DNA of 64,000 bases from Candidatus Calditenuaceae archaeon (GTDB lineage Archaea > Thermoproteota > Nitrososphaeria_A > Caldarchaeales > Calditenuaceae): contig JANXEU010000007.1 of NCBI GenBank assembly GCA_025058055.1, positions 379 to 64,378 of the forward strand, written 5' to 3'. The position numbers and the translations under genes were made by a program. The notes under the pieces were generated by a model. It worked only from the letters and a program-made list of their open reading frames with translations. It was not told the DNA's origin and ran no database searches. Below, one piece after another: positions 40,844 through 55,524 of this stretch (position 1 is its first letter; each line of letters starts with the position of its first letter).

Positions 40844-41425
40844 ATGGCGCAGGAGTATCCTGAACCAAAGATCGAGATCCAGAACGTCGTGGCCTCTGTG
40901 ACGCTGAACCAGAGACTGGACCTTCAGTCGATTCAGAACGCCTTTCCTCAAGTGGACTATAAGCCAGCCCAGTTCCCAGGTCTAGTGTTCAGGCTTGAGA
41001 GGCCGAAGACCGCGACGCTGATCTTCAGCAGCGGCAAGATGGTCTGCACAGGCGCGAAGAGCGAGGAGGAGTCTAAGAGGGCCGTGAAGAGGGTGGTGAG
41101 GCTGTTGAAGGAGAAGGGTTTCTTGGTGAGCGAGGACGCGATCATCGAGGTCCAGAACATCGTCGCCTCCATCGACCTCTTCGGTCGGATCAACCTCGAG
41201 AGGGCCGCGCAGGTCCTGGAGACCGTGATGTACGAGCCCGAGCAATTCCCAGGCCTCATCTACAGGATGTCTGAACCGAAGGTCGTGATCTTGATGTTCG
41301 CTAGCGGCAAGCTCGTCTGCACGGGCGCCAAGACAGAGGCCGAGGTCCACGAGGCGGTGATGAGGCTCTCGGAGGAGTTAAGAAGGAAGGGACTGATCAC
41401 ATACGTCACCCGCGTGAACAAGTAG
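40844..41425 (+). CDS. tbp: TATA-box binding protein
   Basis: 193 aa with two direct repeats (IQNVVASVTLNQRLDLQSI.../IQNIVASIDLFGRINLERA...) and a PGLVFRL/PGLIYRM pair. Confidence 0.95.
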   Translation: MAQEYPEPKIEIQNVVASVTLNQRLDLQSIQNAFPQVDYKPAQFPGLVFRLERPKTATLIFSSGKMVCTGAKSEEESKRAVKRVVRLLKEKGFLVSEDAIIEVQNIVASIDLFGRINLERAAQVLETVMYEPEQFPGLIYRMSEPKVVILMFASGKLVCTGAKTEAEVHEAVMRLSEELRRKGLITYVTRVNK

Positions 41426-42279: not shown

Positions 42280-43086
42280 TTAGCGATTACCGGTATCAAC
42301 GGCAGGCCTCCAATTGATAATCTTCTGTTCTAATAGAGCAACAGTAGTGAACATTGAGAGTCCCAGACTTGCCATGACCAAGCATATGGCGGCCGATAGC
42401 GCAACGTCAACATAGTAAATGCTCGCCAGTAACAGGTAACCTAGACCACCAGTAGAGCCTGCCATTTCGCCGACGACTGAGCCTACCACGGATAGGACCG
42501 ACGCGATCTTGAGTGCTGCGAAGACGTTCGGAAGTGCTGCCCTCAGTCTGACCTCGGTGAAGACCTTTCGCTCGTCGGCGCCTAAGGACTTCAAGAGGTC
42601 GGTTAACTCCTGATCGACGTATTTCAACCCCGAGACGGTCCCAACAGTTACTGGGAAATAAGAGACTAGCGCTGCCATGATGATCTTCGCCCAAACGTCG
42701 TAACCGAGCCAGAAGGTCAGAAGGGGAGCCATCGCGACTAGCGGGACAGCCTTGCTCGTGACGACGATGGGGTAGAGAATTCTCTCTAAGAATCTCGAGT
42801 AATACATCATTACTCCGATCCCGAAGCCTACTCCGGCACCTATCGCAAACCCAGCAACGGACTCGAAGGCAGTCATGCTGAAATGTCTTAAGAGGAACGA
42901 GGGCCCAGTATTGCGGATTGAGGCTGCCAAGTCTGAGACCGCGGGGAGTATCACCCTAGGGATGCTGTTGGTACGCGCGAACAGCTCGACAGCTAGCGTT
43001 AACAGACCTAGAAGCGCAACCGACGGCCACCACTCTTTCATCGTCGTCAAAGTCCCGCTGATCAAACTCCCCTTTGTCCGGGTCAA
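42280..43086 (-). CDS. ABC transporter permease (NitT/TauT/Ssu family)
   Basis: BPD_transp_1 signature region with 6 TM helices. It has a 4-nt overlap with the ATPase gene. Confidence 0.75.
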   Translation of the reverse strand: MTRTKGSLISGTLTTMKEWWPSVALLGLLTLAVELFARTNSIPRVILPAVSDLAASIRNTGPSFLLRHFSMTAFESVAGFAIGAGVGFGIGVMMYYSRFLERILYPIVVTSKAVPLVAMAPLLTFWLGYDVWAKIIMAALVSYFPVTVGTVSGLKYVDQELTDLLKSLGADERKVFTEVRLRAALPNVFAALKIASVLSVVGSVVGEMAGSTGGLGYLLLASIYYVDVALSAAICLVMASLGLSMFTTVALLEQKIINWRPAVDTGNR

Positions 43087-43868
43087 CTCGCCATCATCAA
43101 CCTCGGAATCCTGAGAGCCTTCCGAACGCTGATGACGTGTTCGTAGTACCGCTCGCTCTCAAGTAATCTAGGATCGCGAGCCGGACCCAAATCCACGCGA
43201 ACCTCGGTCACCTTTTGCCCGGGTCTCGCTGAAAGAACGACCACTCGATCAGAGAACAGAACCGCTTCGTACACGTTGTGAGTTATTAAAAGCGCCGTTA
43301 TGTGGGTCGGTTCACATAGCCTCAGCATGTCGAAGTTCAACATCTCTCGGTTCATCTCGTCGAGGGCTGCAAAAGGCTCGTCTAGAAGTAGAACTCTTGG
43401 AGACTGTATCATCGCTCGAGCTAAAGCGCAACGTTGTTGCATCCCAATCGAGAGCTCGTTGGGGTAACTGTGCTCGAAGCCTCCCAGCCCTATCGCTCTG
43501 AGTAAATTTACCGCTTTTCGCTTGACGCGGTCGTCGGTCCTGCCCCTGATCCGGAGAGGAAGCAGAACGTTCTCCAACACGCTCCTCCACGGCAAGAGAG
43601 TCGGTTTCTGAAAGACGACACCTATCTCTCCACGTCTTCTGGGAAGATCTGGCTCCTCTCCGTCTATCAACACTCTACCGCTAGTAGGCTTCAAGAGGCC
43701 TGCAGCGACTTTGAGCAGCGTGGTCTTCCCACAGCCCGAGGGCCCCAGCAACGCAACTTTCTCGCCTGCTTCAACGTGGATGGAAATGGGGCCGAGCGCG
43801 TCAACGAAGTTCCCGTTCTTCGATCTATAACGTACTGTCAGCTCGTCCACCGATATTTCTGCACCCAT
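43083..43868 (-). CDS. ABC transporter ATP-binding protein (NitT/TauT/Ssu family)
   Basis: Walker A GPSGCGKTT, signature LSIGMQQR, Walker B LLLLDEP. Confidence 0.8.
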   Translation of the reverse strand: MGAEISVDELTVRYRSKNGNFVDALGPISIHVEAGEKVALLGPSGCGKTTLLKVAAGLLKPTSGRVLIDGEEPDLPRRRGEIGVVFQKPTLLPWRSVLENVLLPLRIRGRTDDRVKRKAVNLLRAIGLGGFEHSYPNELSIGMQQRCALARAMIQSPRVLLLDEPFAALDEMNREMLNFDMLRLCEPTHITALLITHNVYEAVLFSDRVVVLSARPGQKVTEVRVDLGPARDPRLLESERYYEHVISVRKALRIPRLMMAS

Positions 43869-43872
43869 TTGC

Positions 43873-45258
43873 TCAGACCCCCAGCTTTCCTGGGTTCATG
43901 ATGCCGTTGGGGTCCACCCTTCGCTTGAAGTCCATCATGGCCTGCAGTTTCTCTGGAAAGAGGGCACCCAGCCTATCGTTTACGAGGTGCGAATGCAAGT
44001 CAAACTTGTAGCCGACTCCAGCGAACCTCTTCCTCAACGCCGCAAGCGTTTCGGCATCACCTTCCACAAAGAGCCCGAAGTGCGCGTACGGAGCACCTCT
44101 TATCCAGAAGAGGTTCACTTCGATTAAGGGGGCCCACTCCTCGTGCGCGGAGACCTCTTCAACAACGTCCCAAACTCTGTTATGGTGATGATAAAAGACT
44201 AAGTAAAGTAAATGTCTGTGAGGATCTCGTTCTTTTATGTGCCTGATTATGTATGGTGTCTGTGGAAGGCCGAACACCCCTGATAGTATTCTGTCGATGG
44301 AGACCCGATCCGTCACCTTAACACGGTCGATGCTTCCGCTACAACGTTCCACGTAACTCTTGAAGGTCGCAGCTAAGTGCCTATTTGTCGGGTAGGCGGC
44401 CATAACGTACCACCCCTCTCTAGCCCTGCTTGATCTGGTGAGGTCTTCCATCAACCTGCCATAACCCGAGTTTCTCACCGTTAGGTGCCAGAACTGAACT
44501 CTGTCTCGAATTAAGAGGTCAATGAACTCTGCCACTGAGCTCAGTTCACGAAAGTAACCCTCTGCGAGGACGTGATCCCATAAAGGTCGTAGCATCAGAC
44601 CCACCTCTACGACCACACCAACGGTTCCCATGCTGTGCGTGACTGTCTCGACTTCGTCCGACTGAAGTTCCAGCACCTCGCCCTTAGGTGTAACCAGCCT
44701 CAAGGAGGATACGTTGTCCCAGATAAGTCCGTACTCATATGACCCGATACCTCTACTGCCACCCACAACGAATCCACCGACTGTGGCCAGAGGATAGCTG
44801 GTGGGGTAGACTCTGAGGTCTAGGCCCCTAGCACGAACGTGCTGCATTAGCGTTCCAAACCTACATCCGCCCTCCACCCGAACCGTCGAATCATCGATCC
44901 TTCCAACTCCGTTCATCAATCTCATGTCCATCAGTATCCCTCCTCTGATAGGAAGGACGCCTCCCACGTTGTTGCCTGTCCCCCCGCCTTTCGGTACGAC
45001 CGGGATGCCGTGTGAGTCGGCAAAGCTCAACAACCATATCACTTCCTCCAAGCATCGAGGAAAAACCACCACGTCTGCTACGGCAGAGCCGATGAGCTCA
45101 GAAAAAGCCGGAGATATCCAGGCCCATTCGGTTGAGAGTTTCCTCCTGACCCACTCTTCTCGGTAGGTCCGACCCCTGAACTTCTTCTCGATTTCGCTCA
45201 AAAGGTCTTCATCCACAACAACCCTCTCGTGCCCCTCACAGCTATTTGGCAGAGACAT
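43873..45258 (-). CDS. FAD-linked oxidase (PCMH-type FAD-binding domain; GlcD/D-lactate dehydrogenase-like)
   Basis: 461 aa. FAD_binding_4 pattern (VVVFPRCLEEVIWLLSFADSHGIPVVPKGGGTGNNVGG) and C-terminal ...MDFKRRVDPNGIMNPGKL typical of FAD-linked oxidases. Confidence 0.7.
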   Translation of the reverse strand: MSLPNSCEGHERVVVDEDLLSEIEKKFRGRTYREEWVRRKLSTEWAWISPAFSELIGSAVADVVVFPRCLEEVIWLLSFADSHGIPVVPKGGGTGNNVGGVLPIRGGILMDMRLMNGVGRIDDSTVRVEGGCRFGTLMQHVRARGLDLRVYPTSYPLATVGGFVVGGSRGIGSYEYGLIWDNVSSLRLVTPKGEVLELQSDEVETVTHSMGTVGVVVEVGLMLRPLWDHVLAEGYFRELSSVAEFIDLLIRDRVQFWHLTVRNSGYGRLMEDLTRSSRAREGWYVMAAYPTNRHLAATFKSYVERCSGSIDRVKVTDRVSIDRILSGVFGLPQTPYIIRHIKERDPHRHLLYLVFYHHHNRVWDVVEEVSAHEEWAPLIEVNLFWIRGAPYAHFGLFVEGDAETLAALRKRFAGVGYKFDLHSHLVNDRLGALFPEKLQAMMDFKRRVDPNGIMNPGKLGV

Positions 45259-46246
45259 CCATTACGACCTCCTCGGCCCTCACCTCTCTGGACAGCTTGC
45301 CGCCCTCAACTAAGAGCCTGCTAAGACCGATCAGAGGTTCGCGCTCGATCACTCCCACTTTAGCAGGATCCCTCGCGCCCATTAGCTCAAGCCCTATCGA
45401 GAACCTCTCAAGGAGAACATCGCGGTCTGTAGGAGGGTTGTAATCGCGGTAACTCATCGCTATGTCCACGGCCTGCTCTCTATTCGAGTAGGCCCAAGCT
45501 ATCCCCTTTCTAACCGCGTTCAGGAAACGCCTTACGACGTCGGCGTTCGCGTTCAGGTATTCCTCGTTGCCGAAGATGACCAGCGAAGGAAAGTTGAGCC
45601 CCAGATCACCGAAACGAATGAACTCCACGTCTATCCCCACTTTCCTGAACGAGGCCAGATCGGTGACCCAACCGACGGCCGCGTCGACTCTTCCTGACGC
45701 CAGAGGAGTTACCACATCGAAACCGATGTTCACTTTGTTCACCGAATCTGTCCTCAGCCCTTCCCTTTTGAGCAGCAAGTCGAACTGCAGGTCCTGTGTC
45801 GACCCAATCAGGGCTCCGACGGTCTTTCCTTGAAGGTCTGCCACAGATCGCGCTCTCGATGCCTTCAGCACGAATATTCCAGCGGGGTTCTCCTTGAAGA
45901 CCTGAAAGACGACCTTGAGCTTAGCCCCTTTGTCTATGGCTGAGAGGACCACGTCCAAAGTCGCGAGGCCGAGGTCGGCCTTCCCGGATGTGACCAGCTC
46001 AACGGCGTACGGGCTGTTCTTTCCGGGTACGATCTCTAACGCGATGCCTTCGTCCCTGAAGAAGCCTCTGCTCAACGCCGCGAAGTAGGGTACGTGGTGC
46101 CCGTCGAGAGCCCCGTAGTTGAGGACGAACCTGACGTGCCTCATTTCAGCAGGTTTGCCGTCTGACGACGGGTTGGAGAGGAACGCTGCCGTCGCGACGA
46201 TCGCGACCGCCATCAAAGCTAGCAGTAAGACTATTTTGGACCTCAC
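45242..46246 (-). CDS. ABC substrate-binding protein (NMT1/THI5 / SsuA-TauA-like), membrane-anchored
   Basis: The N-terminal TM/signal (MRSKIVLLLALMAVAIVATAAF) is followed by an NMT1-like fold (FVLNYGALDGHHVPYFAALSRGFF). It overlaps the oxidase start by 17 nt. Confidence 0.65.
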   Translation of the reverse strand: MRSKIVLLLALMAVAIVATAAFLSNPSSDGKPAEMRHVRFVLNYGALDGHHVPYFAALSRGFFRDEGIALEIVPGKNSPYAVELVTSGKADLGLATLDVVLSAIDKGAKLKVVFQVFKENPAGIFVLKASRARSVADLQGKTVGALIGSTQDLQFDLLLKREGLRTDSVNKVNIGFDVVTPLASGRVDAAVGWVTDLASFRKVGIDVEFIRFGDLGLNFPSLVIFGNEEYLNANADVVRRFLNAVRKGIAWAYSNREQAVDIAMSYRDYNPPTDRDVLLERFSIGLELMGARDPAKVGVIEREPLIGLSRLLVEGGKLSREVRAEEVVMDVSAK

Positions 46247-46566: not shown

Positions 46567-46579
46567 CTTAATTTATAAA
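46567..46579 (+). promoter_or_regulatory. TATA box (TTAATTTATAAAG) upstream of methyltransferase-ATP-grasp gene
   Basis: It lies 45-80 nt upstream of the candidate starts (TTG 46626 / ATG 46647). Confidence 0.35.
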
Positions 46580-46646
46580 GAAATAGGTATTTTATCAGGT
46601 AACATCGAACCGAATTGACGACCTGTTGGTGGCTAAACAGAGGACG

Positions 46647-48542
46647 ATGAGGGACGTTCCCTGGGGGACGGGCCCGGTGCCTCTGGAGGAGAGGGAAGAA
46701 CGCGACTGGTGGAGGAAGCTCTTCAACGACGTGTATCTGCTAACAGACGGCGATGTCGTCTGCAACAGGCGGCTGACCGAGTACGAGGTCGATATCGTAA
46801 TCGATCTCCTCGATTTGGACAAGGATGACCCGCTGCTGGATCTCTGCTGTGGAAACGGTAGACACTCCCTCGAGCTTGCGAGGCGGGGCTTCAGGAAGGT
46901 TTACGGGCTTGACTACTCGCAAACCCTCCTAAACGTCGCGAGGGACTCTGCACTCAGCGAGGGCCTTCTCGTCGACTTCCGGCAAGGAGACGCGAGGCGC
47001 CTGCCTTACGAGGACAACGCTTTCAACGCCGTCATAATGATGGGAAACAGCTTCGGTTACTTCAGGGATGAGGCTGACAACATTAGAGTGCTGAGGGAGG
47101 TTCACCGAGTCCTACGACCCTACGGCAGGCTGCTGATGGACTTGACTGACGCAGAGTGCTTCCGAAATACTTTCGAACCTGTAAGAGCTGAGGTTCACGA
47201 CCACACGCTCGTCGTTAGGTTGAGGGAGCTCTCGAGGGACCGTAGTAGGTTCTTCACACGAGAGATCGTCATCTCGGGTGATGCGATCGTAGCGGATCAG
47301 GTCTACGGCATCAGGCTTTACACGTTCGACGAGCTGAAGCGACTCTTGAGAGAGGCGGGATTCGTGAACGTCGCTCTTAGGACCAAACTCACCTACAATC
47401 CAGTCGATAAGGACCCCGGAATGATGGGCTCGAGGATGGTCGTTACAGCTCTGGCATCTAAAGAACCGAAGAACACAGGGAACAAACCGCTGATAGTGGT
47501 CCTTCTGGGCGATCCGAGAAGGCCGCATCCCGTTAAACCGGGATTCAGGTTCGACGAGGACGACGTTCACGCGGTAAACGAACTCAGGTCTGCTCTGCAC
47601 GGCATCGGAGACTACACGTACGCGTTCCTGGACGACCACTCAAAGATGCTACACTTCTTGATGGAGAAGAGGAACTCGATTCACATGGTCCTTAACCTCT
47701 GCGACGACGGCTTCTTCAACGATCCCTACAAGGAGGGACACGTGGCTGCGGTTCTGGACGTATTAGACGTGAGGTACACCGGAGCCGGACCCGCATGTCT
47801 CAGCATTTGCTACGACAAGTCCGCGGTGAAGGCCGTTGCCCGATCGATGGGCATTCCCGTTCCATATCACTTGGTGGTCAACAGCGTTAGGGAACTGCGT
47901 TCCGTGTCGACCCGACTTCTGCCGGCAGTAGTGAAGCCGAACTACGGGGACAACAGCTGGGGCATAACCAGTGAGAGCCTCGTTAAGACCACGGAAGAGC
48001 TCGTGAACGCCTTCAGGTCCCTCCGAGAGGAGTGGAAATACTCGGGCCCAGTGATCGTTGAGAAGTTCATAGAAGGTGACGACCTGACGGTCTCGATGAT
48101 CGGAAACCCACCGAACCTAATCTTCTTACCGGTCCTCAAGGAGGATTACTCCCAACTCCCCGCCGGGCTACCGCGAATTTTGACGTACGACGCGAAGTGG
48201 AACCCCAACTCTCCCTACTGGCGAGTCAATTCCGTTCCGGCACACCTGGACGACGGCCTCCGGGCTAAGCTACTCAAGTGGAGCGAGAAGCTCTTCGTGA
48301 GGTTGGGATGCAGAGACTACGCGCGGTTTGACTGGAGGCTTGGTAGCGACGGAGTTCCGAGGTTGCTCGAGGCCAACCCTAACCCCGGTTGGGTGTGGGA
48401 CGGCCACCTCCGCAAGGCTTGCAAGCACGCTGGGTGGACCTATGAGAGGATGTTCAAAGAGATCATCAGAGCTGCGGAGAAGAGATACGCGTTAAAGAAC
48501 CAAAACGGCAACGAGTTCAAGCATCTGTACCCCTCAACTTGA
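46647..48542 (+). CDS. Fusion protein: class I SAM-dependent methyltransferase (N-terminal) + D-alanine-D-alanine-ligase-like ATP-grasp domain (C-terminal)
   Basis: N-terminal half: motif I VIDLLDLDKDDPLLDLCCGNGRHSLELARRG plus the post-I acidic and motif II/III pattern. C-terminal ~330 aa: Ddl-like pre-ATP-grasp (LIVVLLGDPR...DYTYAFLDD) and ATP-grasp (LPAVVKPNYGDNSWGI..., VIVEKFIEGDDLTVSMIGN, RFDWRLGSDGVPRLLEANPNPG). The ORF track starts at TTG 46626. Confidence 0.7.
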   Translation: MRDVPWGTGPVPLEEREERDWWRKLFNDVYLLTDGDVVCNRRLTEYEVDIVIDLLDLDKDDPLLDLCCGNGRHSLELARRGFRKVYGLDYSQTLLNVARDSALSEGLLVDFRQGDARRLPYEDNAFNAVIMMGNSFGYFRDEADNIRVLREVHRVLRPYGRLLMDLTDAECFRNTFEPVRAEVHDHTLVVRLRELSRDRSRFFTREIVISGDAIVADQVYGIRLYTFDELKRLLREAGFVNVALRTKLTYNPVDKDPGMMGSRMVVTALASKEPKNTGNKPLIVVLLGDPRRPHPVKPGFRFDEDDVHAVNELRSALHGIGDYTYAFLDDHSKMLHFLMEKRNSIHMVLNLCDDGFFNDPYKEGHVAAVLDVLDVRYTGAGPACLSICYDKSAVKAVARSMGIPVPYHLVVNSVRELRSVSTRLLPAVVKPNYGDNSWGITSESLVKTTEELVNAFRSLREEWKYSGPVIVEKFIEGDDLTVSMIGNPPNLIFLPVLKEDYSQLPAGLPRILTYDAKWNPNSPYWRVNSVPAHLDDGLRAKLLKWSEKLFVRLGCRDYARFDWRLGSDGVPRLLEANPNPGWVWDGHLRKACKHAGWTYERMFKEIIRAAEKRYALKNQNGNEFKHLYPST

Positions 48543-48990
48543 CGAGCTTCGTCTTCCCATAGGGCTTCGTTGTGACGACGCCGCGTCTCTCTAGCTGCTT
48601 GATGACTCTGTGTGCCTTGACCCGTGAAATGCCAAGCCTTCTGGCGATCTCCTTCTGCGTCATCGGACCGGTACTCGACAGAAGATCGACGACCCTACTC
48701 TCCTCGTCCAGAAGACCGACTAGTTTCGTGGCTTGCGTGGGAGCCGCCAGCACGAATGCGAGTGTGACTCCGAGACCTACCGCGCCTATGACCACTAAAA
48801 TTCCGAGAACAGGGCCGAACGACATCACTTGATGACACATGGGACAATGCACCGTCATTGGAGGAAACGGTTGAACCGAGAGTACTGCCGCGACGGGAAG
48901 GATCAAGGCTACGGTAGAGATCACGAGGAGGGTCAGCAGAGCTCTGTTCACGAATAAACTTAGACGCCTCCTTATGATAACCGTTTTCAA
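48517..48990 (-). CDS. Membrane-anchored winged-helix (MarR/TrmB-like) transcriptional regulator
   Basis: Two predicted TM helices are followed by a C-terminal wHTH (MTQKEIARRLGISRVKAHRVIKQLERRGVV). Confidence 0.5.
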   Translation of the reverse strand: MKTVIIRRRLSLFVNRALLTLLVISTVALILPVAAVLSVQPFPPMTVHCPMCHQVMSFGPVLGILVVIGAVGLGVTLAFVLAAPTQATKLVGLLDEESRVVDLLSSTGPMTQKEIARRLGISRVKAHRVIKQLERRGVVTTKPYGKTKLVKLRGTDA

Positions 48991-49099: not shown

Positions 49100-49723
49100 C
49101 TAATGATTAAAGATCCAAGAAGCGAAAACCCAAGCGCCAATTCCCACGAGTATAAGGCTCCATATCCTATCGAAGTCAATCCAAAGCCTCTTCAGTGACC
49201 CTATACCCAGCACGAGGTAAACGGAGGCCGCAAAAGACGCCATTACTAAGACGGATGCGGTTGAGTGAAGCGCGATCATGTACAGACCTCCTGTCAAGCT
49301 CCCGGTCGCTCCTCCGTAAATGGAACAGTAGAGCGCGAAGAACGGCATCACCGATGGTATCGACCCATGAACTACACCTAACGCTGCGCCCAATGGGATC
49401 ATCTCAAGCCTTGAGCGCTTCAGCCCGAAGTACCAGTGTGTCCTTCTGAGAAGCCTGTAGGCTCCGAAGGCGATCAACGCCACAGCCGACGCCGGTGCGG
49501 TGACAGAGTTCAGCCACGATGTCGCGATGGAGATGGGCAGGAGCGAGAGCATCGCCAGAGTATGCCCAGCACCCAACAGTCCGACGGTAATGAACACCTC
49601 TCCTCTGCTCTTGTTCATCATACCTCGATGGACGCTGAGCAACCATCCAGACGTAGGGTTAGCACCGTGAATTAGCCCCATGTAGATGACCGTTGAGGCT
49701 ATGACTTCTTCAGGGAGGACCAT
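49100..49723 (-). CDS. Integral membrane protein (about 6 TM), possible metal/small-solute transporter
   Basis: Hydrophobic throughout with a His/Asn N-terminal motif (IHGANPTSGW). No confident family assignment. Confidence 0.4.
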   Translation of the reverse strand: MVLPEEVIASTVIYMGLIHGANPTSGWLLSVHRGMMNKSRGEVFITVGLLGAGHTLAMLSLLPISIATSWLNSVTAPASAVALIAFGAYRLLRRTHWYFGLKRSRLEMIPLGAALGVVHGSIPSVMPFFALYCSIYGGATGSLTGGLYMIALHSTASVLVMASFAASVYLVLGIGSLKRLWIDFDRIWSLILVGIGAWVFASWIFNH

Positions 49724-49727
49724 GAAC

Positions 49728-51119
49728 TCACGCTGACGGGTAACAGAAACTGTCCGAGCTCGAGTCGCCGCCCTCGAGCCTCACCTGATGGGCCTTCGCT
49801 TGGCCGAAATCAACGAAGAACCTGTCATCGACCGAAAGTTGCCCACCCTCAGAGTTGAGCTTAACCAACCATCCGTAAAGTCCCTCGGGATAGAATATCG
49901 GATCCCACGAGCTGTAAAGCGAGTTGGTCACATACACCCTCCTACCGTCTCTGCTCACCTCTACCATCTGCGGCGCACCGGTAAGTCTCCTTCCTGACGG
50001 ATGATCTGCTCTGTGAACTATTCCACCCAGCTTCGCTATCGACTTGAGCTTGGGCTCGAAGGGGTTGCTTACGTCGTAGCATCTCAGCTCTCCCGTACCC
50101 CAGCAGGAGACGTAGAGGTATCTATCGTCAACTGAGAGAACTATATCGGTCACCAATGGTGGAACGGCTCCGAAGGGCTTCAGGACGCCAGGCAAAAGGT
50201 TCTCTTCTAGCGGAACGGCCTCTATTTCGATCACCTTGCTCACATCCCAGCGGTTATCCTCCTTGTGCCAGAGCCAGATGCTGGAGCTTAGGTCCTTAAC
50301 GCTGATGACGACGTTCGCGAACCCCATCAACTTGGTGGGCTCGTGAAAAGGTCTCAACTCGAGCACCATCCGCTGCTCCTTCCCAAGCTCGATCGATTTT
50401 AGATGCTTCCTTTTCCTGAGGTCCCAGAAGTGAATCCTGTTACCGTAAAGGCCTTTGACAAGCGCGTCTAAGTCGAGCCCGTTCTCGAAGTACTTGGGGA
50501 CGGTCCACTCACTGGATATCATGACCTCTTCTGTGAGGTGCCACCAGAAATCGTAAGCCAAGTACTGGTCTCCCCGGTCGATCTCGAACCTTCCAAGTGG
50601 CTCGAGGGTCCTGTGGTCGAGCAACAAAACGCCTCCCGGACCTTCGTCACCAGTGCCGCCTAGACCGCTGAGGTAGACCGCATCCGGTCCACAATGTACG
50701 GTGTGAATTCTCGAGTATCCGCTGACCTCTCTTATCCTCTCACCTCTGATCTTCTTGACGAGCGTAGGCCTACGCGGATCTGGTTTCGTGTCAATCACGT
50801 AGACGTTCGAGGACCTCAACCCAGGCACTATCAGATACCGTCTCTCTAAAGTGGGGTCGCCATAGGGGCACAGCATGGAGCTACAGGCGTTCCATCCGAA
50901 GTGGTGAAGCTCGTCCCCGATCTCGGGAAGCTCTACCCTGTGTAAGATCTGGCTGTAGGTATCAGATTTCGGATCAACGTCTACGACGGCCAGGAAGTCC
51001 GGCTTCTGCAGACCTGTGCCAGTGTAAAGCCCGGCGACATACGCTATCGTCTCAGGAGGGCCTCTAACCGCCTCTCTCGGCGTCGGGTAAAAAGTCTGGT
51101 CGGGTTTGAGCCTGCTCAC
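49728..51119 (-). CDS. Selenium-binding protein family (SBP56 / methanethiol oxidase-like)
   Basis: 463 aa. FYPTPREAVRGPPETIAYVAGLYTGTG...DFLAVVDVDPKSDTYSQILHRVELPEIGDELHHFGWNACSS closely matches the SBP56 N-terminus. The start is GTG. Confidence 0.85.
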   Translation of the reverse strand: MSRLKPDQTFYPTPREAVRGPPETIAYVAGLYTGTGLQKPDFLAVVDVDPKSDTYSQILHRVELPEIGDELHHFGWNACSSMLCPYGDPTLERRYLIVPGLRSSNVYVIDTKPDPRRPTLVKKIRGERIREVSGYSRIHTVHCGPDAVYLSGLGGTGDEGPGGVLLLDHRTLEPLGRFEIDRGDQYLAYDFWWHLTEEVMISSEWTVPKYFENGLDLDALVKGLYGNRIHFWDLRKRKHLKSIELGKEQRMVLELRPFHEPTKLMGFANVVISVKDLSSSIWLWHKEDNRWDVSKVIEIEAVPLEENLLPGVLKPFGAVPPLVTDIVLSVDDRYLYVSCWGTGELRCYDVSNPFEPKLKSIAKLGGIVHRADHPSGRRLTGAPQMVEVSRDGRRVYVTNSLYSSWDPIFYPEGLYGWLVKLNSEGGQLSVDDRFFVDFGQAKAHQVRLEGGDSSSDSFCYPSA

Positions 51120-51151: not shown

Positions 51152-51446
51152 TAAAATGATTACTCAATAGGTCCAATATTATATTGCATTAATGCCCGAG
51201 AGGAGGTTGGAGAGGGTCTGAGTGGGTGGAAAACCGCGGAGTTCACGTTCTAGCGCGGTTGGGAGCGGTTCGACCAAAAGGGCTTTGGAGACCTGCCTCA
51301 GCTGCTCGAGGGCCTTGAAGCCCAATGCCGACACGTGGGAGCGTGATCGAACTAAGAAGTCCTCGGGCTGAGAGGCTATGCTCGGACGGTGATATCTTTT
51401 TATGGACGCCGTAGTGTCGCATTCACGCAAAAAGGTGAAAGATGAG

Positions 51447-51719
51447 ATGAGCACTTCGGACGTGACCGTGTTGGTAGGGAAGAAGCCAGCGATGAGCTAC
51501 GTTCTAGCGTGTCTGATAGCGTTGCAACAGGGCCAGAACATCACGTTGAAGGCTAGGGGTAAGGCGATCAGCAGGGCAGTGGACGTAGTTCAGATACTTC
51601 GAAACAGGTTCCTGAGGGACCTGAGGGTGCAGCAGATAAACTTGGGGACCGAGACGCTGAAGGGGCAGGACGGCCGCGACGTCAACGTCAGCACCATCGA
51701 GATCAAAATAGCCCACTGA
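51447..51719 (+). CDS. albA: Alba (Sso10b) chromatin/RNA-binding protein
   Basis: VTVLVGKKPAMSYVLACLIALQQGQNITLKARGKAISRAVDVVQILRNRF...VSTIEIKI is the Alba fold signature. The ORF track starts at ATG 51402; Met 51447 gives the canonical length. Confidence 0.85.
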   Translation: MSTSDVTVLVGKKPAMSYVLACLIALQQGQNITLKARGKAISRAVDVVQILRNRFLRDLRVQQINLGTETLKGQDGRDVNVSTIEIKIAH

Positions 51720-51765
51720 ACTAAAGTCGACAGGTGCGGAGCGATGAGCTGGGGGACCAGGGGAG

Positions 51766-52263
51766 TTGAGACTTCCGGTTTGCGAGTTCGACGTCAGGAC
51801 CGGAACCCTCTGCCCGAAATGCGAGCCCCTCATCTCGTCCGGTGCGTTATCACCGGAAGACCTACGAGCGATGAGGGAGCTTCTGGAGGCAGAGCTTCAG
51901 TTTCCCCAGCTCAAGACAGCTGAATACGTAAAAACCATACGAGCAAGCGGAATTTTCTTTGTCTTGCTTCGATATTACGCCGACCTGAGGCAGTTCAAGT
52001 TCAGACTTGAGCGACACCTTTCTCAGAGGCTAGGCGCTCAGGTGAACGTCATCGAGTACGCTGGGAGCGTGAACGCGTTGCTGGAGCAGCTCTTGAAGCC
52101 TGCAAGGGTGACCGGCATCAGCAGGGTGTGGCTTCCTGACGGAACCGAGCAACTCCTCGTGAAGGTGGACAAGATGTCCTCCGTTACCATCGGAATAGAC
52201 AGAGTTACCGATGTGCTCAAGGCCCTCCGGGGCATTGAGGTAGTAATCGAAGAGGCCGGGTGA
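51766..52263 (+). CDS. Putative RNA-binding protein: N-terminal Cys4 zinc ribbon + NusA-like KH region
   Basis: CEFDVRTGTLCPKCE zinc ribbon. The C-terminal VNVIEYAGSVNALLEQLLKPARVTGISRV...IGIDRV resembles archaeal NusA-like KH repeats. Tentative. Confidence 0.4.
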   Translation: MRLPVCEFDVRTGTLCPKCEPLISSGALSPEDLRAMRELLEAELQFPQLKTAEYVKTIRASGIFFVLLRYYADLRQFKFRLERHLSQRLGAQVNVIEYAGSVNALLEQLLKPARVTGISRVWLPDGTEQLLVKVDKMSSVTIGIDRVTDVLKALRGIEVVIEEAG

Positions 52264-52264
52264 C

Positions 52265-53161
52265 TCAGGTCAGTAGCCCTATGTAACGAGAGGCGCTGTC
52301 GGGTAACACGGTAACTACGAGGCCCTCTTCTAAATCCTGTGCCACGGAGATGGCCGCATAGACATTCGCACCTGCCGACGGCCCCGTGAGAAGTCCGAAC
52401 CTCCTCGCTAGGACGCGGGCCGTGTTATACGCATCCTCAGTCCTGACGAACACTCGAACGTCGGCAAAGCTATCGTCGTAAATCTTGGGAACGATCGCGT
52501 TGTACATGTTCTTCAGCCCCTCGATGCCGTGAAGCGGTTCGGCCGGCTGGACCTCCACCAACCTCACGTCTCTGATGACCTCCTTCAACCTCTTCCCCGC
52601 ACCCATAAGCGTTCCCGACGTGCCGACCCCCGCGACGAAGTGCGTTACCTTCCCTAATGTCTGCTCTATGATCTCCGGCCCGGTAGTCTCGTAGTGAGCC
52701 CTCAGGTTGGATGGGTTGTCGTATTGATTCGCGTAAAAGTATCGCTTTGGGTCGGATTCGTAGATCTCCCTCGCCTTCCTGATGGCGCCGTCGATGCCCT
52801 CGAGCGCGTCTGAGACGATGATCTCTGAGCCGAGATACCTCAAAAGGGCGAGCTTTTGCTGGCTGATGCTGCCCGGTACTACTAGGGTGACACCTATTCC
52901 AAGGGAGGCTCCCACCAACGCGAGCCCCAACCCCATGTTCCCCGACGTAGCATCGAGTATCCGTTTCTCTTGGGTCAGCGCACCGCTCCTCAATGCGTCC
53001 ATCACTATGTATAGGGCAGGCCTGTCCTTGACCGAGCCGCCAGGGTTCATGAACTCGGCTTTAGCCATGAGCCTCACCCCTCTCCGGTCTCCCAGTAGCC
53101 GCGTCAAATCGATCATAGGCGTCCTGCCGATAGCGCTCAGCACGCTTCCGAGCTCCATCAC
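52265..53161 (-). CDS. cysK: Cysteine synthase / O-acetylserine sulfhydrylase family (PLP-dependent, fold type II)
   Basis: GRTPMIDL, PGGSVKDRPA (PLP-lysine motif) and GVGTSGTLMG glycine loop. Confidence 0.8.
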   Translation of the reverse strand: MMELGSVLSAIGRTPMIDLTRLLGDRRGVRLMAKAEFMNPGGSVKDRPALYIVMDALRSGALTQEKRILDATSGNMGLGLALVGASLGIGVTLVVPGSISQQKLALLRYLGSEIIVSDALEGIDGAIRKAREIYESDPKRYFYANQYDNPSNLRAHYETTGPEIIEQTLGKVTHFVAGVGTSGTLMGAGKRLKEVIRDVRLVEVQPAEPLHGIEGLKNMYNAIVPKIYDDSFADVRVFVRTEDAYNTARVLARRFGLLTGPSAGANVYAAISVAQDLEEGLVVTVLPDSASRYIGLLT

Positions 53162-53243: not shown

Positions 53244-54815
53244 GTGGGCAATTGGGATACAAATGACGCACTAGAGTATCACGAGAACACCAAGCACAGC
53301 TACGTATCCGTTAGGCTGCGAGGGCGAGGTCTGGACTGGGAGAACATGCCTTACCCCTTCAAAGTTTACCCTGATGCACCTAGGGTCGAGCTTCCCAGTT
53401 CCTTTCCCTCACCAACCGCCACCCTCTTCGAGGCGCTGCGCCGTCCTGAATCGCGAACGCTCCGAGAGATCGAGCTGCCGCTGATCGCGGAGCTCCTCTT
53501 CTATAGTGCCGGCATCACCAGAATTAAGGACTACGGATGGGGAAGGGTCTACTTCAGGGCGGCAGCTGCCACAGGCAACCTCCACGAGACTGAGCTCTAC
53601 TTAGTCGTGGGTGGTGGAGGAGATCTGGAACCCGGAGTTTACCACTTCGATCCTTGTGAGTTCTGCCTGTCGCAGATCAGAAGAGGTGATTACAGGCAGC
53701 GCTTGGCTAGGTCTACGCGCTCGGCCGAAGTGCTGGAATCCGGCCTGACGGTCGTTCTCAGCTCCGTGGCGTGGAGGAACGCTTGGAAGTACGGCCCGAG
53801 GTCCTACAGACACTGGTTCTGGGACGGTGGCGCTCTATGCGCGAACCTGCTGGCCGTCTCGAGGGCCGAGGGTCTCGAGCCAGAGGTCCTGATGGGGTTC
53901 GTAGACGAGGAGGTCAACGCTCTGATCGGCGCCGAGCAGCCTAGGGAGGCGGCGATAGCAGTCGTGGCCCTGAAGGGGCTCGAGTCGAGCCACCCGGGCT
54001 CGAGCCCGTCCACCGACCCAATTCGGTACCGGCCGATGCCCTACTCGAGGCGCGAGGTCCAGTATAGAGAGATCGCTGAGGCCCACGCATCCTCCTGCCT
54101 CCGCGACGCCGACGAGGTGGCGAGGTGGAGGGACGGTGCCGGGCGGCTGAGGCCGACCAGCGACCTTGAGCCCCCTGCGGCCAGCTGGCTGTGGGCCGAC
54201 CTGCGCCCCCTACCGCTCGGCGAAGCGATCCTGTTACGGGGCTCGGCGAGGAGGTTCACCCAGACACCAATACGCGGCGAGGTGCTACGCGCCGTGACGT
54301 GGGCGATGTGCGCCCCGATCGAGGCTGACTTCGTCCCGAGAGGACTGACGACGCTGCTGGAGCGGTTCGCGATCGTGAACGCGGTCGATGGACTCGATCC
54401 AGGCTCCTACCTTCATGAGCGCGGGAGCCTCGAGCTCCGCCTCCTTAAGCCTGGGAACTTCAGGAGGGTAGCGGGGTACCTCTGCTTGGAGCAGGGCCTG
54501 GGGAGCGACGCCTCGGTCGTCTTCTTCCTGATGGCGAGGCTCGGGGAGGTCCTCGGACACATGGGCAACAGGGGCTACAGGGCGGTCCAGTTCGAGGCGG
54601 GGGTCAGGGTCGGACTGGCGTACCTAGTCGCGTACTCGCTGGGGATCGGCGCGACCGGGCTGACGTTCTACGACGACGTCCGGGAGTTCTTCGCGCCTGC
54701 CTCGGACGGCATGGAGAACATGATGGTGGTGGCGCTTGGGAACCCGTCCTACAGGTCCAGGCCCGGCAGGATTCACGTCCGGGAGTGCAGGCACCCGGCC
54801 TTTAGGAGGTCGTGA
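53244..54815 (+). CDS. Tandem-domain SagB-type dehydrogenase (nitroreductase superfamily; McbC/SagB-like)
   Basis: The N-terminal EYHENTKHSY is the SagB-domain hallmark. A second nitroreductase-like domain begins around LLRGSARRFTQTPI. This gene, especially its 3' half, is visibly more GC- and CpG-rich than the surrounding DNA. Confidence 0.7.
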   Translation: MGNWDTNDALEYHENTKHSYVSVRLRGRGLDWENMPYPFKVYPDAPRVELPSSFPSPTATLFEALRRPESRTLREIELPLIAELLFYSAGITRIKDYGWGRVYFRAAAATGNLHETELYLVVGGGGDLEPGVYHFDPCEFCLSQIRRGDYRQRLARSTRSAEVLESGLTVVLSSVAWRNAWKYGPRSYRHWFWDGGALCANLLAVSRAEGLEPEVLMGFVDEEVNALIGAEQPREAAIAVVALKGLESSHPGSSPSTDPIRYRPMPYSRREVQYREIAEAHASSCLRDADEVARWRDGAGRLRPTSDLEPPAASWLWADLRPLPLGEAILLRGSARRFTQTPIRGEVLRAVTWAMCAPIEADFVPRGLTTLLERFAIVNAVDGLDPGSYLHERGSLELRLLKPGNFRRVAGYLCLEQGLGSDASVVFFLMARLGEVLGHMGNRGYRAVQFEAGVRVGLAYLVAYSLGIGATGLTFYDDVREFFAPASDGMENMMVVALGNPSYRSRPGRIHVRECRHPAFRRS

Positions 54816-55437: not shown

Positions 55438-55524
55438 GCACTCTTAGGTCTCACCCGCCGATCGCTAGAGGGTCTCACGAAGACTCAGTTGATATACGGG
55501 AAGCAGAAAAGAGCTCTAGGAGCG

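What the first reader, a model, noticed from the sequence alone, without database searches (positions are those of the whole stretch)
46626..48542. Novel-looking fusion of a class I SAM methyltransferase with a D-Ala-D-Ala-ligase-like ATP-grasp enzyme
A single 630-640 aa polypeptide carries a complete Methyltransf_11/25-type domain (motif I LDLCCGNGRHSLELARRG) and a complete Ddl-like ligase. The ligase has an N-terminal alpha/beta domain, a central ATP-grasp (KPNYGDNSWGI, EKFIEGDDLTVS) and a C-terminal catalytic loop (RFDWRLGSDGVPRLLEANPNPG). I know of no described enzyme with this architecture. It could ligate an amino acid or amine to a carboxylate and then methylate the product or substrate in one protein. 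Stand-alone O-MT plus Ddl-like pairs occur in mycosporine-like amino acid biosynthesis, but that is an analogy only.
Basis: seen in the sequence. Interest (0 to 1): 0.75.

Follow-up and report, generated by a model that had tools for sequence, protein, structure and literature searches.

The report
Widespread methyltransferase–amide ligase fusion enzyme
This archaeal gene really does encode one protein that joins a SAM-dependent methyltransferase to a D-Ala-D-Ala-ligase-like ATP-grasp ligase; the same fusion is conserved in hundreds of bacterial, archaeal and a few eukaryotic species, and I found no report of what it does.

Summary
The ORF 46626-48542 (+) is real and intact. Both halves are significant: Methyltransf_25 E 6e-23 and Dala_Dala_lig_C E 2e-21. 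All SAM-binding and ATP-grasp catalytic motifs are invariant across relatives.

It is not a frameshift artefact. The 120 best homologues are all full-length fusions. At least 595 GTDB species in more than 20 phylum-level groups carry it, as do chytrid and blastoclad fungi and Monosiga.

It is not a D-Ala-D-Ala ligase. It scores at half the curated cut-offs, the D-Ala-specific residues are replaced by other invariant residues, and the host is an archaeon.

The methyltransferase half belongs to the four-β-strand-cap class whose characterised members mostly N-methylate amines (NmbA, CypM, glycine-sarcosine N-MT). The ligase module also occurs alone in DPANN archaea, and a sister family carries a C-terminal GNAT acetyltransferase. 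The partner domains are therefore typically amine-modifying enzymes.

No operon partner is conserved. CorA, MscS and CitMHS transporters lie next to it more often than chance in about 15 of 83 loci.

My best reading, which is inferred, is a self-contained synthase of an N-methylated aminoacyl-amide or dipeptide-like solute. A role in modifying proteins or RNA is not excluded.

The architecture is common in databases under generic names. I found no functional description.

The parts
46626..48542 (+). Coding sequence of the fusion protein. The longest ORF starts at TTG 46626, the probable start is ATG 46647 (631 aa), and the stop codon ends at 48542.
   Evidence: It is 100% identical to public protein P0001 ('MAG: methyltransferase domain-containing protein [Thaumarchaeota archaeon]').
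46647..47471 (+). N-terminal half, aa 1-275. It is a class I SAM-dependent methyltransferase with an N-terminal helical cap (DWWRKLF..VYLLTDGDVV) and a four-β-strand cap insertion. Motif I (LDLCCGNGRHS) is at aa 64-74 (46836-46868). GNSFGYF is at aa 133-139.
47496..48506 (+). C-terminal half, aa ~284-620. It is a Ddl-like ATP-grasp carboxylate-amine ligase with all three subdomains. Family hallmarks are GDPxxPxxxKP...FDxDD (aa 288-306), NLCDDG (aa 350-355), VKPNYGD (aa 429-435), EDYS (aa 499-502), AKW (aa 516-518), RDYARFDWRL (aa 556-565) and EANPNPGWVWDGH (aa 575-587).
48324..48389 (+). Catalytic loop region, aa 560-581 (RFDWRLGSDGVPRLLEANPNPG). It carries the counterparts of DdlB R255, D257, E270 and N272, which handle Mg/ATP and the acyl-phosphate.
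   Evidence: Residue-by-residue alignment to DdlB (1iov/2dln). R560, D562, E575 and N577 are invariant in 108 sequences.
46572..46579 (+). TTTATAAA, a candidate archaeal TATA box. It lies 47 nt upstream of TTG 46626 and 68 nt upstream of ATG 46647. This is inferred only.
   Evidence: Read directly from the sequence. The host is an archaeon: TBP at 40844-41425 and Topo VI-B at 55489-57084.

Best explanation
The gene encodes a genuine, self-contained bifunctional enzyme that probably works on a small molecule. The C-terminal ATP-grasp half would use ATP/Mg to turn a carboxylate into an acyl-phosphate and join it to an amine, forming an amide bond as D-Ala-D-Ala ligase does. Its substrates are different from D-Ala. 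The N-terminal half would transfer a methyl group from SAM, most likely to a free amino group of the ligase's substrate or product. The expected product is an N-methylated aminoacyl-amide or dipeptide-like compound made from common metabolites by one protein. It would likely be a cytoplasmic solute used in ionic, osmotic or redox stress homeostasis, such as a compatible solute or a low-molecular-weight-thiol-like compound. What is shown: the fusion, the integrity and conservation of both catalytic centres, the non-Ddl substrate residues, the mostly-N-methyltransferase structural class, and the distribution. What is inferred: N-methylation rather than O- or C-methylation, a small-molecule substrate, the order of the two steps, and the physiological role. 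The substrates are unknown.
For: (1) The fusion is conserved. All 120 best homologues (45-77% identity, about 97% coverage) carry both domains. Eukaryotic orthologues keep all motifs. (2) The catalytic machinery is intact. Motif I and the other MT motifs are invariant, as are the DdlB counterparts K97, K144, E180, K215, R255, D257, E270 and N272. (3) It is not Ddl. TIGR01205 scores 118.7 against a cut-off of 245.65. Y216 is replaced by an invariant W518. H280/S281/L282 are replaced by D585/G586/H587. No Dala_Dala_lig_N hit is found. (4) The nearest solved MTs by sequence and fold are amine N-methyltransferases acting on alpha-amino groups or amino sugars: NmbA, CypM, YunM, CgnL, CcbJ, GSMT and DesVI (PMC12719100). 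The GNSFGYF motif resembles GNSFAH of glycine N-methyltransferase, which I recall from memory. (5) The ligase module recurs with typically amine-modifying partners. A class I MT is the dominant partner. A sister family has a C-terminal GNAT in 5 of 5 representatives of 496-533 aa. The module also stands alone. (6) No conserved operon partner is seen in 87 loci, so both steps appear to be supplied by the one protein. (7) CorA (5/5 loci), MscS (5/5) and CitMHS (5/6) lie within 1.5 kb of the gene, while only 28.6% of the flanking sequence does (P 0.002-0.009 each). These loci span about 10 phyla. (8) There is a precedent. Ngg both N-acetylates glutamine and forms a peptide bond in one protein to make the osmoprotectant NAGGN (PMC8070244).
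Against: No substrate is identified, and nothing here tests activity. The transporter association covers only about 18% of loci. In eight Planctomycetota loci the gene follows trmD, often with a 4-bp overlap, in the ffh-rpsP-trmD operon. A DPANN stand-alone ligase sits among RNA- and protein-modification genes next to a SET protein. Other fusions of the ligase module are to SET, LRR and prolyl oligopeptidase. DPANN archaea have little biosynthetic metabolism. All of these fit a macromolecular substrate equally well. Identity of about 45% between domains of life could reflect a conserved macromolecular target. I could not read the model coordinates, so I do not know whether the two active sites face each other. 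No riboswitch was found that might name a ligand.
Confidence: 0.45

Rival explanations
1. The enzyme modifies a macromolecule. It would act on an amino-acid-like group of a protein or RNA of the translation or chromatin apparatus, such as a protein N-terminus, a side-chain carboxylate or a 3-amino-3-carboxypropyl-type appendage. It would form an amide at the carboxylate and N-methylate the amine.
For: In 8 of 9 Planctomycetota loci the gene is directly downstream of trmD, with 0-4 bp overlaps, after ffh and rpsP. The stand-alone ligase in a Pacearchaeote (L089) lies among a MiaB-like radical SAM enzyme, a PrmA/MTS-like MT, a Peptidase_U32, an FKBP and a SET-domain gene. The ligase is fused to SET, LRR or prolyl oligopeptidase in other proteins. 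It is retained in metabolically minimal DPANN archaea. A diphthamide gene is adjacent in L092, and a Dph6-like gene lies about 0.9 kb away in L001. CypM and YunM methylate peptide N-termini. The sister family's GNAT is of the Acetyltransf_3 type, which I recall includes RimJ/RimL. The ligase half is strongly acidic (median net charge -16), and most members have a basic N-terminal tail.
Against: The closest relatives of both halves are small-molecule enzymes: Ddl, NmbA and GSMT. The trmD linkage is confined to one phylum. The DPANN context is not conserved in L090, L091 or L092. The SET fusion rests on one noisy nanopore contig. No candidate substrate gene is consistently adjacent.
Confidence: 0.25
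2. The methyltransferase is an O-methyltransferase that makes a transient methyl ester to protect or direct one carboxylate of a di- or tricarboxylate before ATP-grasp ligation. This is the logic of the cystargolide/belactosin β-lactone pathways. More generally, the protein could be a tailoring enzyme of a natural-product pathway.
Against: There is no biosynthetic gene cluster around the gene in 87 loci. The best MT matches are N-methyltransferases, with BelI far down the list. The gene is present in hundreds of species, including DPANN relatives, which is atypical for secondary metabolism.
Confidence: 0.1
3. It is a true D-alanine-D-alanine (or D-Ala-D-Lac/Ser) ligase, as several databases name it, with an accessory methyltransferase.
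For: The JGI, NCBI and UniRef names are 'D-alanine-D-alanine ligase' and 'VanB'. Ddl is the nearest characterised family by sequence and fold.
Against: Scores are about half of every curated Ddl cut-off. Y216, S281 and L282 are replaced by other invariant residues, and the N-terminal D-Ala1 loop is replaced by GDP..KP..FDxDD. The hosts include archaea and eukaryotes. No mur genes are nearby.
Confidence: 0.02
4. The fusion in this window is an assembly, frameshift or sequencing artefact that joins two adjacent genes.
For: None was found. The source is a metagenome-assembled genome, so this had to be checked.
Against: The same continuous architecture is seen at 45-77% identity in the 120 best homologues, in the 80 retained genome loci from independent assemblies including complete chromosomes, and in eukaryotes. 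The linker aligns without a frame break. The shorter 'ligase-only' hits of 370-600 aa are N-truncated fragments of fusions on short contigs.
Confidence: 0.01

Closest known systems
D-alanine-D-alanine ligase family (DdlA/DdlB, VanA; Pfam Dala_Dala_lig_C, TIGR01205)
   Different: It scores 118.7 bits against the 245.65 cut-off. There is no Dala_Dala_lig_N match. The D-Ala-binding residues are replaced by a different invariant set (W518, D585, G586, H587, C352, GDP..KP..FDxDD). The omega-loop region is about 9 residues longer. It is fused to a methyltransferase. It occurs in archaea and eukaryotes and has no mur context.
NmbA (N-methyl-bacillithiol synthase, PDB 9RI2) and the four-β-strand-cap natural-product methyltransferases (CypM, YunM, CgnL, CcbJ, GSMT, DesVI, 1WZN, 3D2L)
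   Different: Identity is only 23-28%, below the 35% used to define NmbA homologues in PMC12719100. That paper found no archaea or eukaryotes with the complete bacillithiol pathway. Here the MT is covalently joined to a ligase, and its acceptor is unknown.
Ngg of NAGGN biosynthesis (one protein that N-acetylates glutamine and forms the Gln-Gln peptide bond)
   Same: One polypeptide combines N-capping of an amino acid with peptide-bond formation. The product is a cytoplasmic osmoprotectant (PMC8070244). This parallels the GNAT-fused sister family found here.
   Different: The cap is acetyl rather than methyl. The relationship of Ngg's ligase domain to this Ddl-like module was not tested, because I held no Ngg sequence. 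Ngg works with AsnO in an operon, whereas this gene has no constant partner.
Ligase-then-N-cap pathways with separate enzymes: BshC + NmbA, MshC + MshD, carnosine synthase (ATP-grasp) + carnosine N-methyltransferase
   Same: The chemical logic is the same: an ATP-dependent amide ligation, then methylation or acetylation of a nitrogen in the product. This is recalled from established pathway knowledge. NmbA is documented in PMC12719100.
   Different: In those pathways the enzymes are separate proteins, and most of the ligases belong to other families. No homology beyond NmbA was shown here.
   Same: It has an MT and a Ddl-like ligase in one pathway.
   Different: The proteins are stand-alone and the MT is an O-methyltransferase. 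A dehydroquinate-synthase-like partner is required. None of this appears in the loci examined, and the MT half here groups with a mostly N-methyltransferase class. No direct sequence comparison with MysD or MysB was made.

Membership tests
ATP-grasp superfamily, Ddl-like branch (fold and catalytic machinery) | ATP-grasp fold with a conserved ATP-binding Lys pair, Mg-binding Asp/Glu/Asn, and an Arg that stabilises the acyl-phosphate | tested here: met
D-alanine-D-alanine ligase (functional Ddl/Van) | Scores above the curated family thresholds (TIGR01205, NF002378 and the equivalogs) | tested here: not met
   118.7 against 245.65 bits, and 115.6 against 243. All equivalogs are far below their cut-offs. 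The same holds for relatives P0030, P0127, P0129, P0134 and P0149.
D-alanine-D-alanine ligase (functional Ddl/Van) | D-Ala-specific residues: Y216 in the omega loop, S281/L282, and the N-terminal Glu15 loop | tested here: not met
   Y216 is replaced by W518. H280/S281/L282 are replaced by D585/G586/H587, all invariant in the family. No Dala_Dala_lig_N hit is found. The N-terminal loop reads GDPRRPHPVKP. The exact counterpart of Glu15 could not be assigned.
D-alanine-D-alanine ligase (functional Ddl/Van) | Peptidoglycan context (mur/ddl neighbourhood in a murein-containing host) | tested here: not met
   The host is an archaeon (TBP, Topo VI-B). No mur genes appear in any examined locus. Orthologues occur in fungi and Monosiga.
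Class I SAM-dependent methyltransferase | Rossmann-like fold with motif I (D/E-x-G-x-G-x-G), an acidic post-I residue, and motifs II-IV | tested here: met
NmbA (bacillithiol N-methyltransferase) | At least 35% identity clustering with NmbA, and co-occurrence with BshA, BshB and BshC | tested here: not met
Glycine/sarcosine N-methyltransferase; UbiE/MenG | Scores above the curated NCBIfam cut-offs | tested here: not met
   GlySarMtaseBact scores 49.6 against 350. TIGR01934 scores 68.8 against 158.35.
N-methyltransferase (as opposed to O-, C- or S-methyltransferase) | The methyl acceptor is a nitrogen atom | not testable with these tools
   This is inferred only from the nearest structural class (Table 2 of PMC12719100). 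That class also contains C-methyltransferases (PsmD) and non-methyl-transfer enzymes (SpnF; MccD, whose activity I recall from memory).
The fusion family itself (MT + 'GDP/NLCDEG/NPNPGW' ligase) | Full-length collinear match with the hallmark motifs of both halves | tested here: met
   The window protein aligns end to end with 107 homologues at 45-77% identity, and all invariant columns are present.

The most novel reading that the evidence does not exclude
The family carries out a modification not described before, on a conserved macromolecule of the translation or chromatin apparatus. It would form an ATP-dependent amide at the carboxylate of an amino-acid-like group (a protein terminus, a side chain or an acp-type appendage) and N-methylate its amine. 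The modification would be shared by Bacteria, Archaea including Asgard and DPANN lineages, and early-branching opisthokonts. A less radical variant is that it makes an unknown but very widespread N-methylated dipeptide-like metabolite, such as a new low-molecular-weight thiol or compatible solute of anaerobes and thermophiles. I put that variant at about 0.3 probability.
Probability: 0.12. Interest if true: 0.85.

Novelty: new variant of a known kind. Interest (0 to 1): 0.6.

Why it matters
One gene would define a two-step pathway, so the hypothesis can be tested directly by expressing a single protein. The family is large: at least 595 species in this scan, more than 20 phylum-level groups and three domains of life. 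It is strongly conserved, at about 45% identity between Aigarchaeota and Planctomycetota. It is currently misnamed as a cell-wall or vancomycin-resistance enzyme, or given a generic name. Finding its product would correct thousands of annotations. It could also reveal a common metabolite or modification in poorly known lineages such as Asgard, Aigarchaeota, Atribacterota, Planctomycetota and DPANN relatives. Finally, it would add a new substrate class to the Ddl-like ATP-grasp ligases.

Tried and rejected
- **Frameshift or artefact.** Rejected.
- **Split genes in relatives.** The apparent 370-600 aa 'ligase-only' proteins are N-truncated fragments of fusions. True stand-alone ligases exist, mainly in DPANN archaea, with no adjacent orthologue of the MT half. 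One locus, L089, does have an unrelated PrmA/MTS-like MT about 2.3 kb upstream.
- **Conserved operon partner.** I clustered 972 ORFs from 87 loci and ran two Pfam censuses of immediate neighbours. No universal partner emerged.
- **Riboswitch or leader RNA that might name a ligand.** An Rfam gathering scan of 20 bacterial loci found only a tRNA and a group II intron fragment.
- **Literature.** Ten full-text searches combined ATP-grasp, methyltransferase, Ddl, fusion, compatible solute, amidoligase, SET and Pfam names. None described this architecture. PMC11237513, on archaeal fusions, does not mention it.
- **DsyGD.** I recalled this DMSP enzyme as an MT plus ATP-grasp fusion. On reading the paper, its second domain is ureidoglycolate-lyase-like, so it is not relevant.
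- **Curated family assignment.** No NCBIfam model reaches its cut-off.
- **Foldseek against AFDB50.** The library was unavailable.
- **Diphthamide link.** The evidence is one adjacent PF01866 ORF and one nearby Dph6-like gene. This is too thin, and it is contradicted by the wide bacterial distribution, so it is kept only as a note.
- **LMW-thiol idea.** The support is the NmbA similarity, the CysK-family gene and other sulfur genes near the window gene, and GGACT next to two archaeal orthologues. It is suggestive but unproven.
Full report
**Observation**

The window holds a single ORF at 46626..48542 on the + strand, 638 aa from TTG.

Pfam finds a class I SAM methyltransferase at aa 64-163 (Methyltransf_25 E 5.8e-23, Methyltransf_11 E 4.5e-20). 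It also finds the C-terminal part of a D-Ala-D-Ala ligase at aa 419-607 (E 1.7e-21), numbered from the ATG at 46647.

The start codon is ambiguous. Candidates are TTG 46626, GTG 46629 (which would give the 637 aa of the public annotation) and ATG 46647, which is preceded by GAGG. The N-terminus is variable in relatives, so this does not affect the finding. A TTTATAAA box at 46572-46579 is a plausible archaeal promoter element.

The host is an archaeon. TBP lies at 40844-41425 and topoisomerase VI-B at 55489-57084. The identical public protein is labelled 'MAG: Thaumarchaeota archaeon', and its closest relatives are Caldarchaeales/Calditenuaceae. Base composition is unremarkable.

**Is the fusion real?**

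Yes. A search of 5.8 billion proteins returned 590 hits among the 8000 candidates scored. The best 120 are all 534-713 aa, cover 81-100% of the query at 45-77% identity, and carry both the methyltransferase and the Dala_Dala_lig_C Pfam domains.

Of these, 595 were confirmed by tblastn. The 80 retained loci all match query residues about 9-617 collinearly.

The hosts span Nitrososphaerota/Aigarchaeota, several Asgard groups and Halobacteriota, including the cultured Methanoculleus chikugoensis. On the bacterial side they span Thermotogota, Atribacterota, Planctomycetota (many), Acidobacteriota, Nitrospirota, Desulfobacterota, Chloroflexota, Calditrichota (Caldithrix abyssi DSM 13497), Sumerlaeota, Omnitrophota, Spirochaetota and others.

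The representative library also holds eukaryotic orthologues with all hallmark motifs of both halves. These are Monosiga brevicollis XP_001745518.1, Gonapodya prolifera KXS18563.1, Synchytrium endobioticum TPX47760.1 and Blastocladiella britannica KAI9216328.1.

Shorter 'ligase-only' proteins of 370-600 aa turned out to be N-truncated fragments of fusions on short contigs.

**Are both halves catalytically competent?**

Across 108 homologues the MT motifs are invariant or nearly so. They are LDLCCGxGRHS, GLDxS, GDARxLPY and GNSFGYF.

Residue-by-residue alignment to E. coli DdlB (PDB 1iov/2dln) shows the ATP, Mg and acyl-phosphate residues conserved and invariant:

| DdlB | This protein |
|---|---|
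| K97 | K391 |
| K144 | K430 |
| E180 | E472 |
| K215 | K517 |
| R255 | R560 |
| D257 | D562 |
| E270 | E575 |
| N272 | N577 |

The second refutation criterion, a dead domain, is also not met.

An AlphaFold2 model built on the 108-sequence alignment is confident (mean pLDDT 91.6, pTM 0.90). This is consistent with a compact two-domain body rather than beads on a string. I could not read the coordinates, so the relative orientation of the two active sites is unknown.

**What it is not**

It is not a D-Ala-D-Ala ligase, although JGI, UniRef and one NCBI record call relatives 'D-alanine-D-alanine ligase' or 'VanB'.
- Every curated NCBIfam Ddl/Van model scores at about half of its cut-off or less, for example TIGR01205 at 118.7 against 245.65 bits. 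The same is true of five relatives.
- The residues that give Ddl its D-Ala specificity are replaced by a different invariant set. Y216 becomes W518. H280/S281/L282 become D585/G586/H587. H63 becomes C352.
- The N-terminal loop reads GDPxxPxxxKP...FDxDD, and Pfam's Dala_Dala_lig_N is not detected.
- The hosts include archaea and eukaryotes, and no mur genes are nearby.

The MT half does not reach the cut-offs for UbiE/MenG or glycine/sarcosine N-methyltransferase either.

**What each half resembles**

The best solved sequence match to the MT half, over its whole length (aa 18-254, E 2.6e-18), is 9RI2. This is NmbA, the enzyme that N-methylates the cysteine amino group of bacillithiol (PMC12719100).

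**The ligase is a module with its own identity**

Searching only the ligase half against 1.84 billion representatives gave 376 proteins at E<1e-30 and 3807 at E<1e-10.

Besides MT fusions there are true stand-alone ligases of about 340 aa that keep the hallmark motifs. They are found notably in DPANN archaea (Pacearchaeota, Nanoarchaeia).

Other partners appear in single cases:
- An LRR-ligase occurs in a Lokiarchaeon.
- A ligase-prolyl-oligopeptidase occurs in Monosiga, at the locus tag next to the MT-ligase.
- A ligase-SET protein occurs on one noisy nanopore contig, with a class I MT ORF abutting it.

A sister family at 31-37% identity has a C-terminal GNAT acetyltransferase in all five representatives of 496-533 aa that I scanned. 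It lacks the GDP motif but keeps K-W and NPNP.

The recurrent partners of this ligase are thus enzymes whose families typically modify amines, by methylation or acetylation. That is the strongest argument here that the partner domain modifies a nitrogen of the ligase's substrate or product.

**Genomic context**

In the window the gene is monocistronic.
- Upstream there is a 380-bp gap. Beyond it runs a divergent operon encoding an SsuA/NMT1-type binding protein, an FAD oxidase and ABC transporter components (42280-46246, - strand).
- Downstream a TrmB/MarR-like winged-helix gene (48517-48990, - strand) converges on it and overlaps its 3' end.

Across 87 loci I called ORFs, clustered them by BLASTP and ran Pfam censuses of the immediate neighbours. 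There is no universal partner. This fits a protein that supplies both steps itself.

Four recurrent associations stand out. Only 28.6% of the flanking sequence lies within 1.5 kb of the gene.

| Neighbour | Loci within 1.5 kb | P | Hosts |
|---|---|---|---|
| CorA | 5 of 5 | 0.002 | Thermotoga, HR11, Atribacter, Aminicenantes, one other MAG |
| MscS | 5 of 5 | 0.002 | Desulfobacteraceae, Acidobacteriota, Nitrospirota, Nitrosotalea, one other |
| CitMHS/ArsB-type transporter | 5 of 6 | 0.009 | Asgard, Methanosarcinaceae, 'Halobacteria' |
| trmD (after ffh and rpsP) | 8 of 9 | 3e-4 | Planctomycetota only |

CorA is mostly upstream on the same strand. trmD is often joined to the gene by a 4-bp overlap. 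ABC ATPases, as a control, are never within 1.5 kb (0 of 11).

The first three associations link the gene to ion and osmotic homeostasis across about ten phyla, though in only about 18% of loci. The fourth is strong but confined to one phylum.

Opposite-strand neighbours are heterogeneous. A GGACT/AIG2 γ-glutamylcyclotransferase converges on the gene in two archaeal loci. No riboswitch precedes the gene in 20 bacterial loci.

**Mechanism proposed**

Shown:
- It is a conserved bifunctional protein.
- Its ATP-grasp centre is competent for acyl-phosphate chemistry, but its substrate residues are not those of Ddl.
- Its SAM-binding centre sits in a cap architecture typical of amine methyltransferases.

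Inferred:
- The ligase activates the carboxylate of an amino-acid-type substrate and couples it to an amine.
- The MT methylates a free amino group of that substrate or product.
- The result is an N-methylated aminoacyl-amide or dipeptide-like solute.

The precedent is Ngg, which both N-acetylates glutamine and forms the Gln-Gln bond of the osmoprotectant NAGGN in one protein (PMC8070244). Ligate-then-cap logic also occurs with separate enzymes, in bacillithiol to N-methyl-bacillithiol (PMC12719100) and, from general knowledge, in mycothiol and anserine synthesis.

The transporter neighbours suggest a role in ionic or osmotic balance. Three things give a thin thread toward a thiol-containing product:
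- the MT half resembles NmbA;
- the window neighbourhood is sulfur-flavoured, with a CysK/CysM-family enzyme that is also 1.4 kb from the gene in the two closest relatives, an SBP56/methanethiol-oxidase-like protein, and a sulfonate-type transporter;
- GGACT neighbours two archaeal orthologues.

I put the general small-molecule model at 0.45 and any specific product much lower.

**Main rival**

The enzyme may instead modify a macromolecule. Several results fit a protein or RNA substrate equally well:
- the trmD operon linkage;
- a Pacearchaeote locus where the stand-alone ligase sits among a MiaB-like radical SAM enzyme, a PrmA-like MT, a Peptidase_U32, an FKBP and a SET gene;
- the SET, LRR and oligopeptidase fusions;
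- retention in DPANN archaea;
- peptide-N-terminal methyltransferases among the nearest structures;
- the Acetyltransf_3-type GNAT of the sister family, a type I recall includes RimJ/RimL;
- the acidic ligase surface (median net charge -16) together with a basic N-terminal tail.

I give this 0.25. The other rivals rank lower: an O-methyl-ester 'protecting group' or natural-product tailoring logic (0.1), a true Ddl (0.02) and an artefact (0.01).

**Novelty**

Ten full-text searches found no description of this architecture or of its function. No curated NCBIfam model covers it.

The architecture itself is abundant in public databases under generic or wrong names.

It combines two well-known folds in a distinct, conserved family with new substrate-binding residues. 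I therefore class it as a new variant of a known kind.

I score interest at 0.6. It is widespread, spans three domains of life, is misannotated and can be tested with a single gene. The function remains inferred.

Noticed in passing
window 48517-48990 (-): A TrmB/MarR-like winged-helix protein (DUF7343) converges on the fusion gene and overlaps its 3' end by 26 bp. The same arrangement, with 11-20 bp overlaps, is kept in the two closest relatives (L007, L008). It could be a local regulator or just lineage synteny. The NAGGN genes asnO-ngg are also controlled by a MarR-type regulator (PMC8070244).
   Followed up: partly
window 42280-46246 (-), 49728-51119 (-), 52265-53161 (-): The neighbourhood is sulfur-flavoured. 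It holds an SsuA/NMT1-type sulfonate-binding protein with ABC permease and ATPase plus an FAD-linked oxidase, an SBP56 selenium-binding/methanethiol-oxidase-like protein (Pfam E 3.6e-185), and a CysK/CysM-family PLP enzyme (TIGR01136 at 306.9 bits, below the 344 cut-off). The CysK-like gene is also 1.4 kb from the fusion gene in L007 and L008.
   Followed up: partly
window 53244-54815 (+): A 523-aa protein has two SagB-family (nitroreductase-fold) dehydrogenase domains (TIGR03605 at 127 bits, above the 78.4 cut-off). This type of enzyme is used in azole-forming peptide maturation. No cyclodehydratase or precursor was looked for.
   Followed up: no
window 49100-49723 (-), 51179-51454 (-), 51504-51833 (-): Three ORFs (207, 91 and 109 aa) have no Pfam hit. 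The 207-aa ORF also has no NCBIfam hit. They lie between the winged-helix gene, the SBP56 gene and the CysK-like gene. It is not established whether they are real genes.
   Followed up: no
L089 1-7646 (Pacearchaeota contig Ga0376277_0000495): The stand-alone ligase homologue P0361 lies in a run of macromolecule-modification genes: a MiaB-like radical SAM enzyme, a B12-binding radical SAM enzyme, a PrmA/MTS-like MT, a Peptidase_U32, the ligase, an FKBP and a SET-domain protein.
   Followed up: partly
L092 6077-6403 (+); L001 10833-11513 (-): Diphthamide-pathway genes lie near the ligase in two archaeal loci. A PF01866 (Dph1/2-like) ORF sits 30 bp downstream of a DPANN stand-alone ligase. A Dph6-like PF01902 gene sits about 0.9 kb from the Caldarchaeum subterraneum fusion gene. 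Diphthamide synthesis needs N-methylation of an amine and ATP-dependent amidation of a carboxylate, which is the chemistry this fusion could provide. However, the family is also widespread in bacteria.
   Followed up: no
L088 4387-7156 (ENA contig_177704_np1212): On a nanopore metagenome contig with a eukaryote-type aspartyl protease gene nearby, a class I MT ORF abuts a ligase+SET ORF, and a second SET fragment follows. This may be an MT-ligase-SET triple fusion broken by sequencing errors.
   Followed up: no
Monosiga brevicollis MONBRDRAFT_25175 / 25176 (P0216, P0164): Consecutive locus tags encode a ligase-prolyl-oligopeptidase fusion (1210 aa) and an MT-ligase fusion (806 aa). They are probably adjacent paralogous genes in a choanoflagellate.
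   Followed up: no
L001 6585-7389 and 10004-10727: In Caldarchaeum subterraneum the fusion gene is flanked on both sides by HEPN/nucleotidyltransferase (MNT) toxin-antitoxin-like pairs.
   Followed up: no
L010 7950-8405 (-), L011 6556-7032 (-): A GGACT/AIG2-like γ-glutamylcyclotransferase gene converges on the fusion gene, 18-38 bp from its stop, in two archaeal MAGs (Nitrososphaerales and Aigarchaeota).
   Followed up: partly
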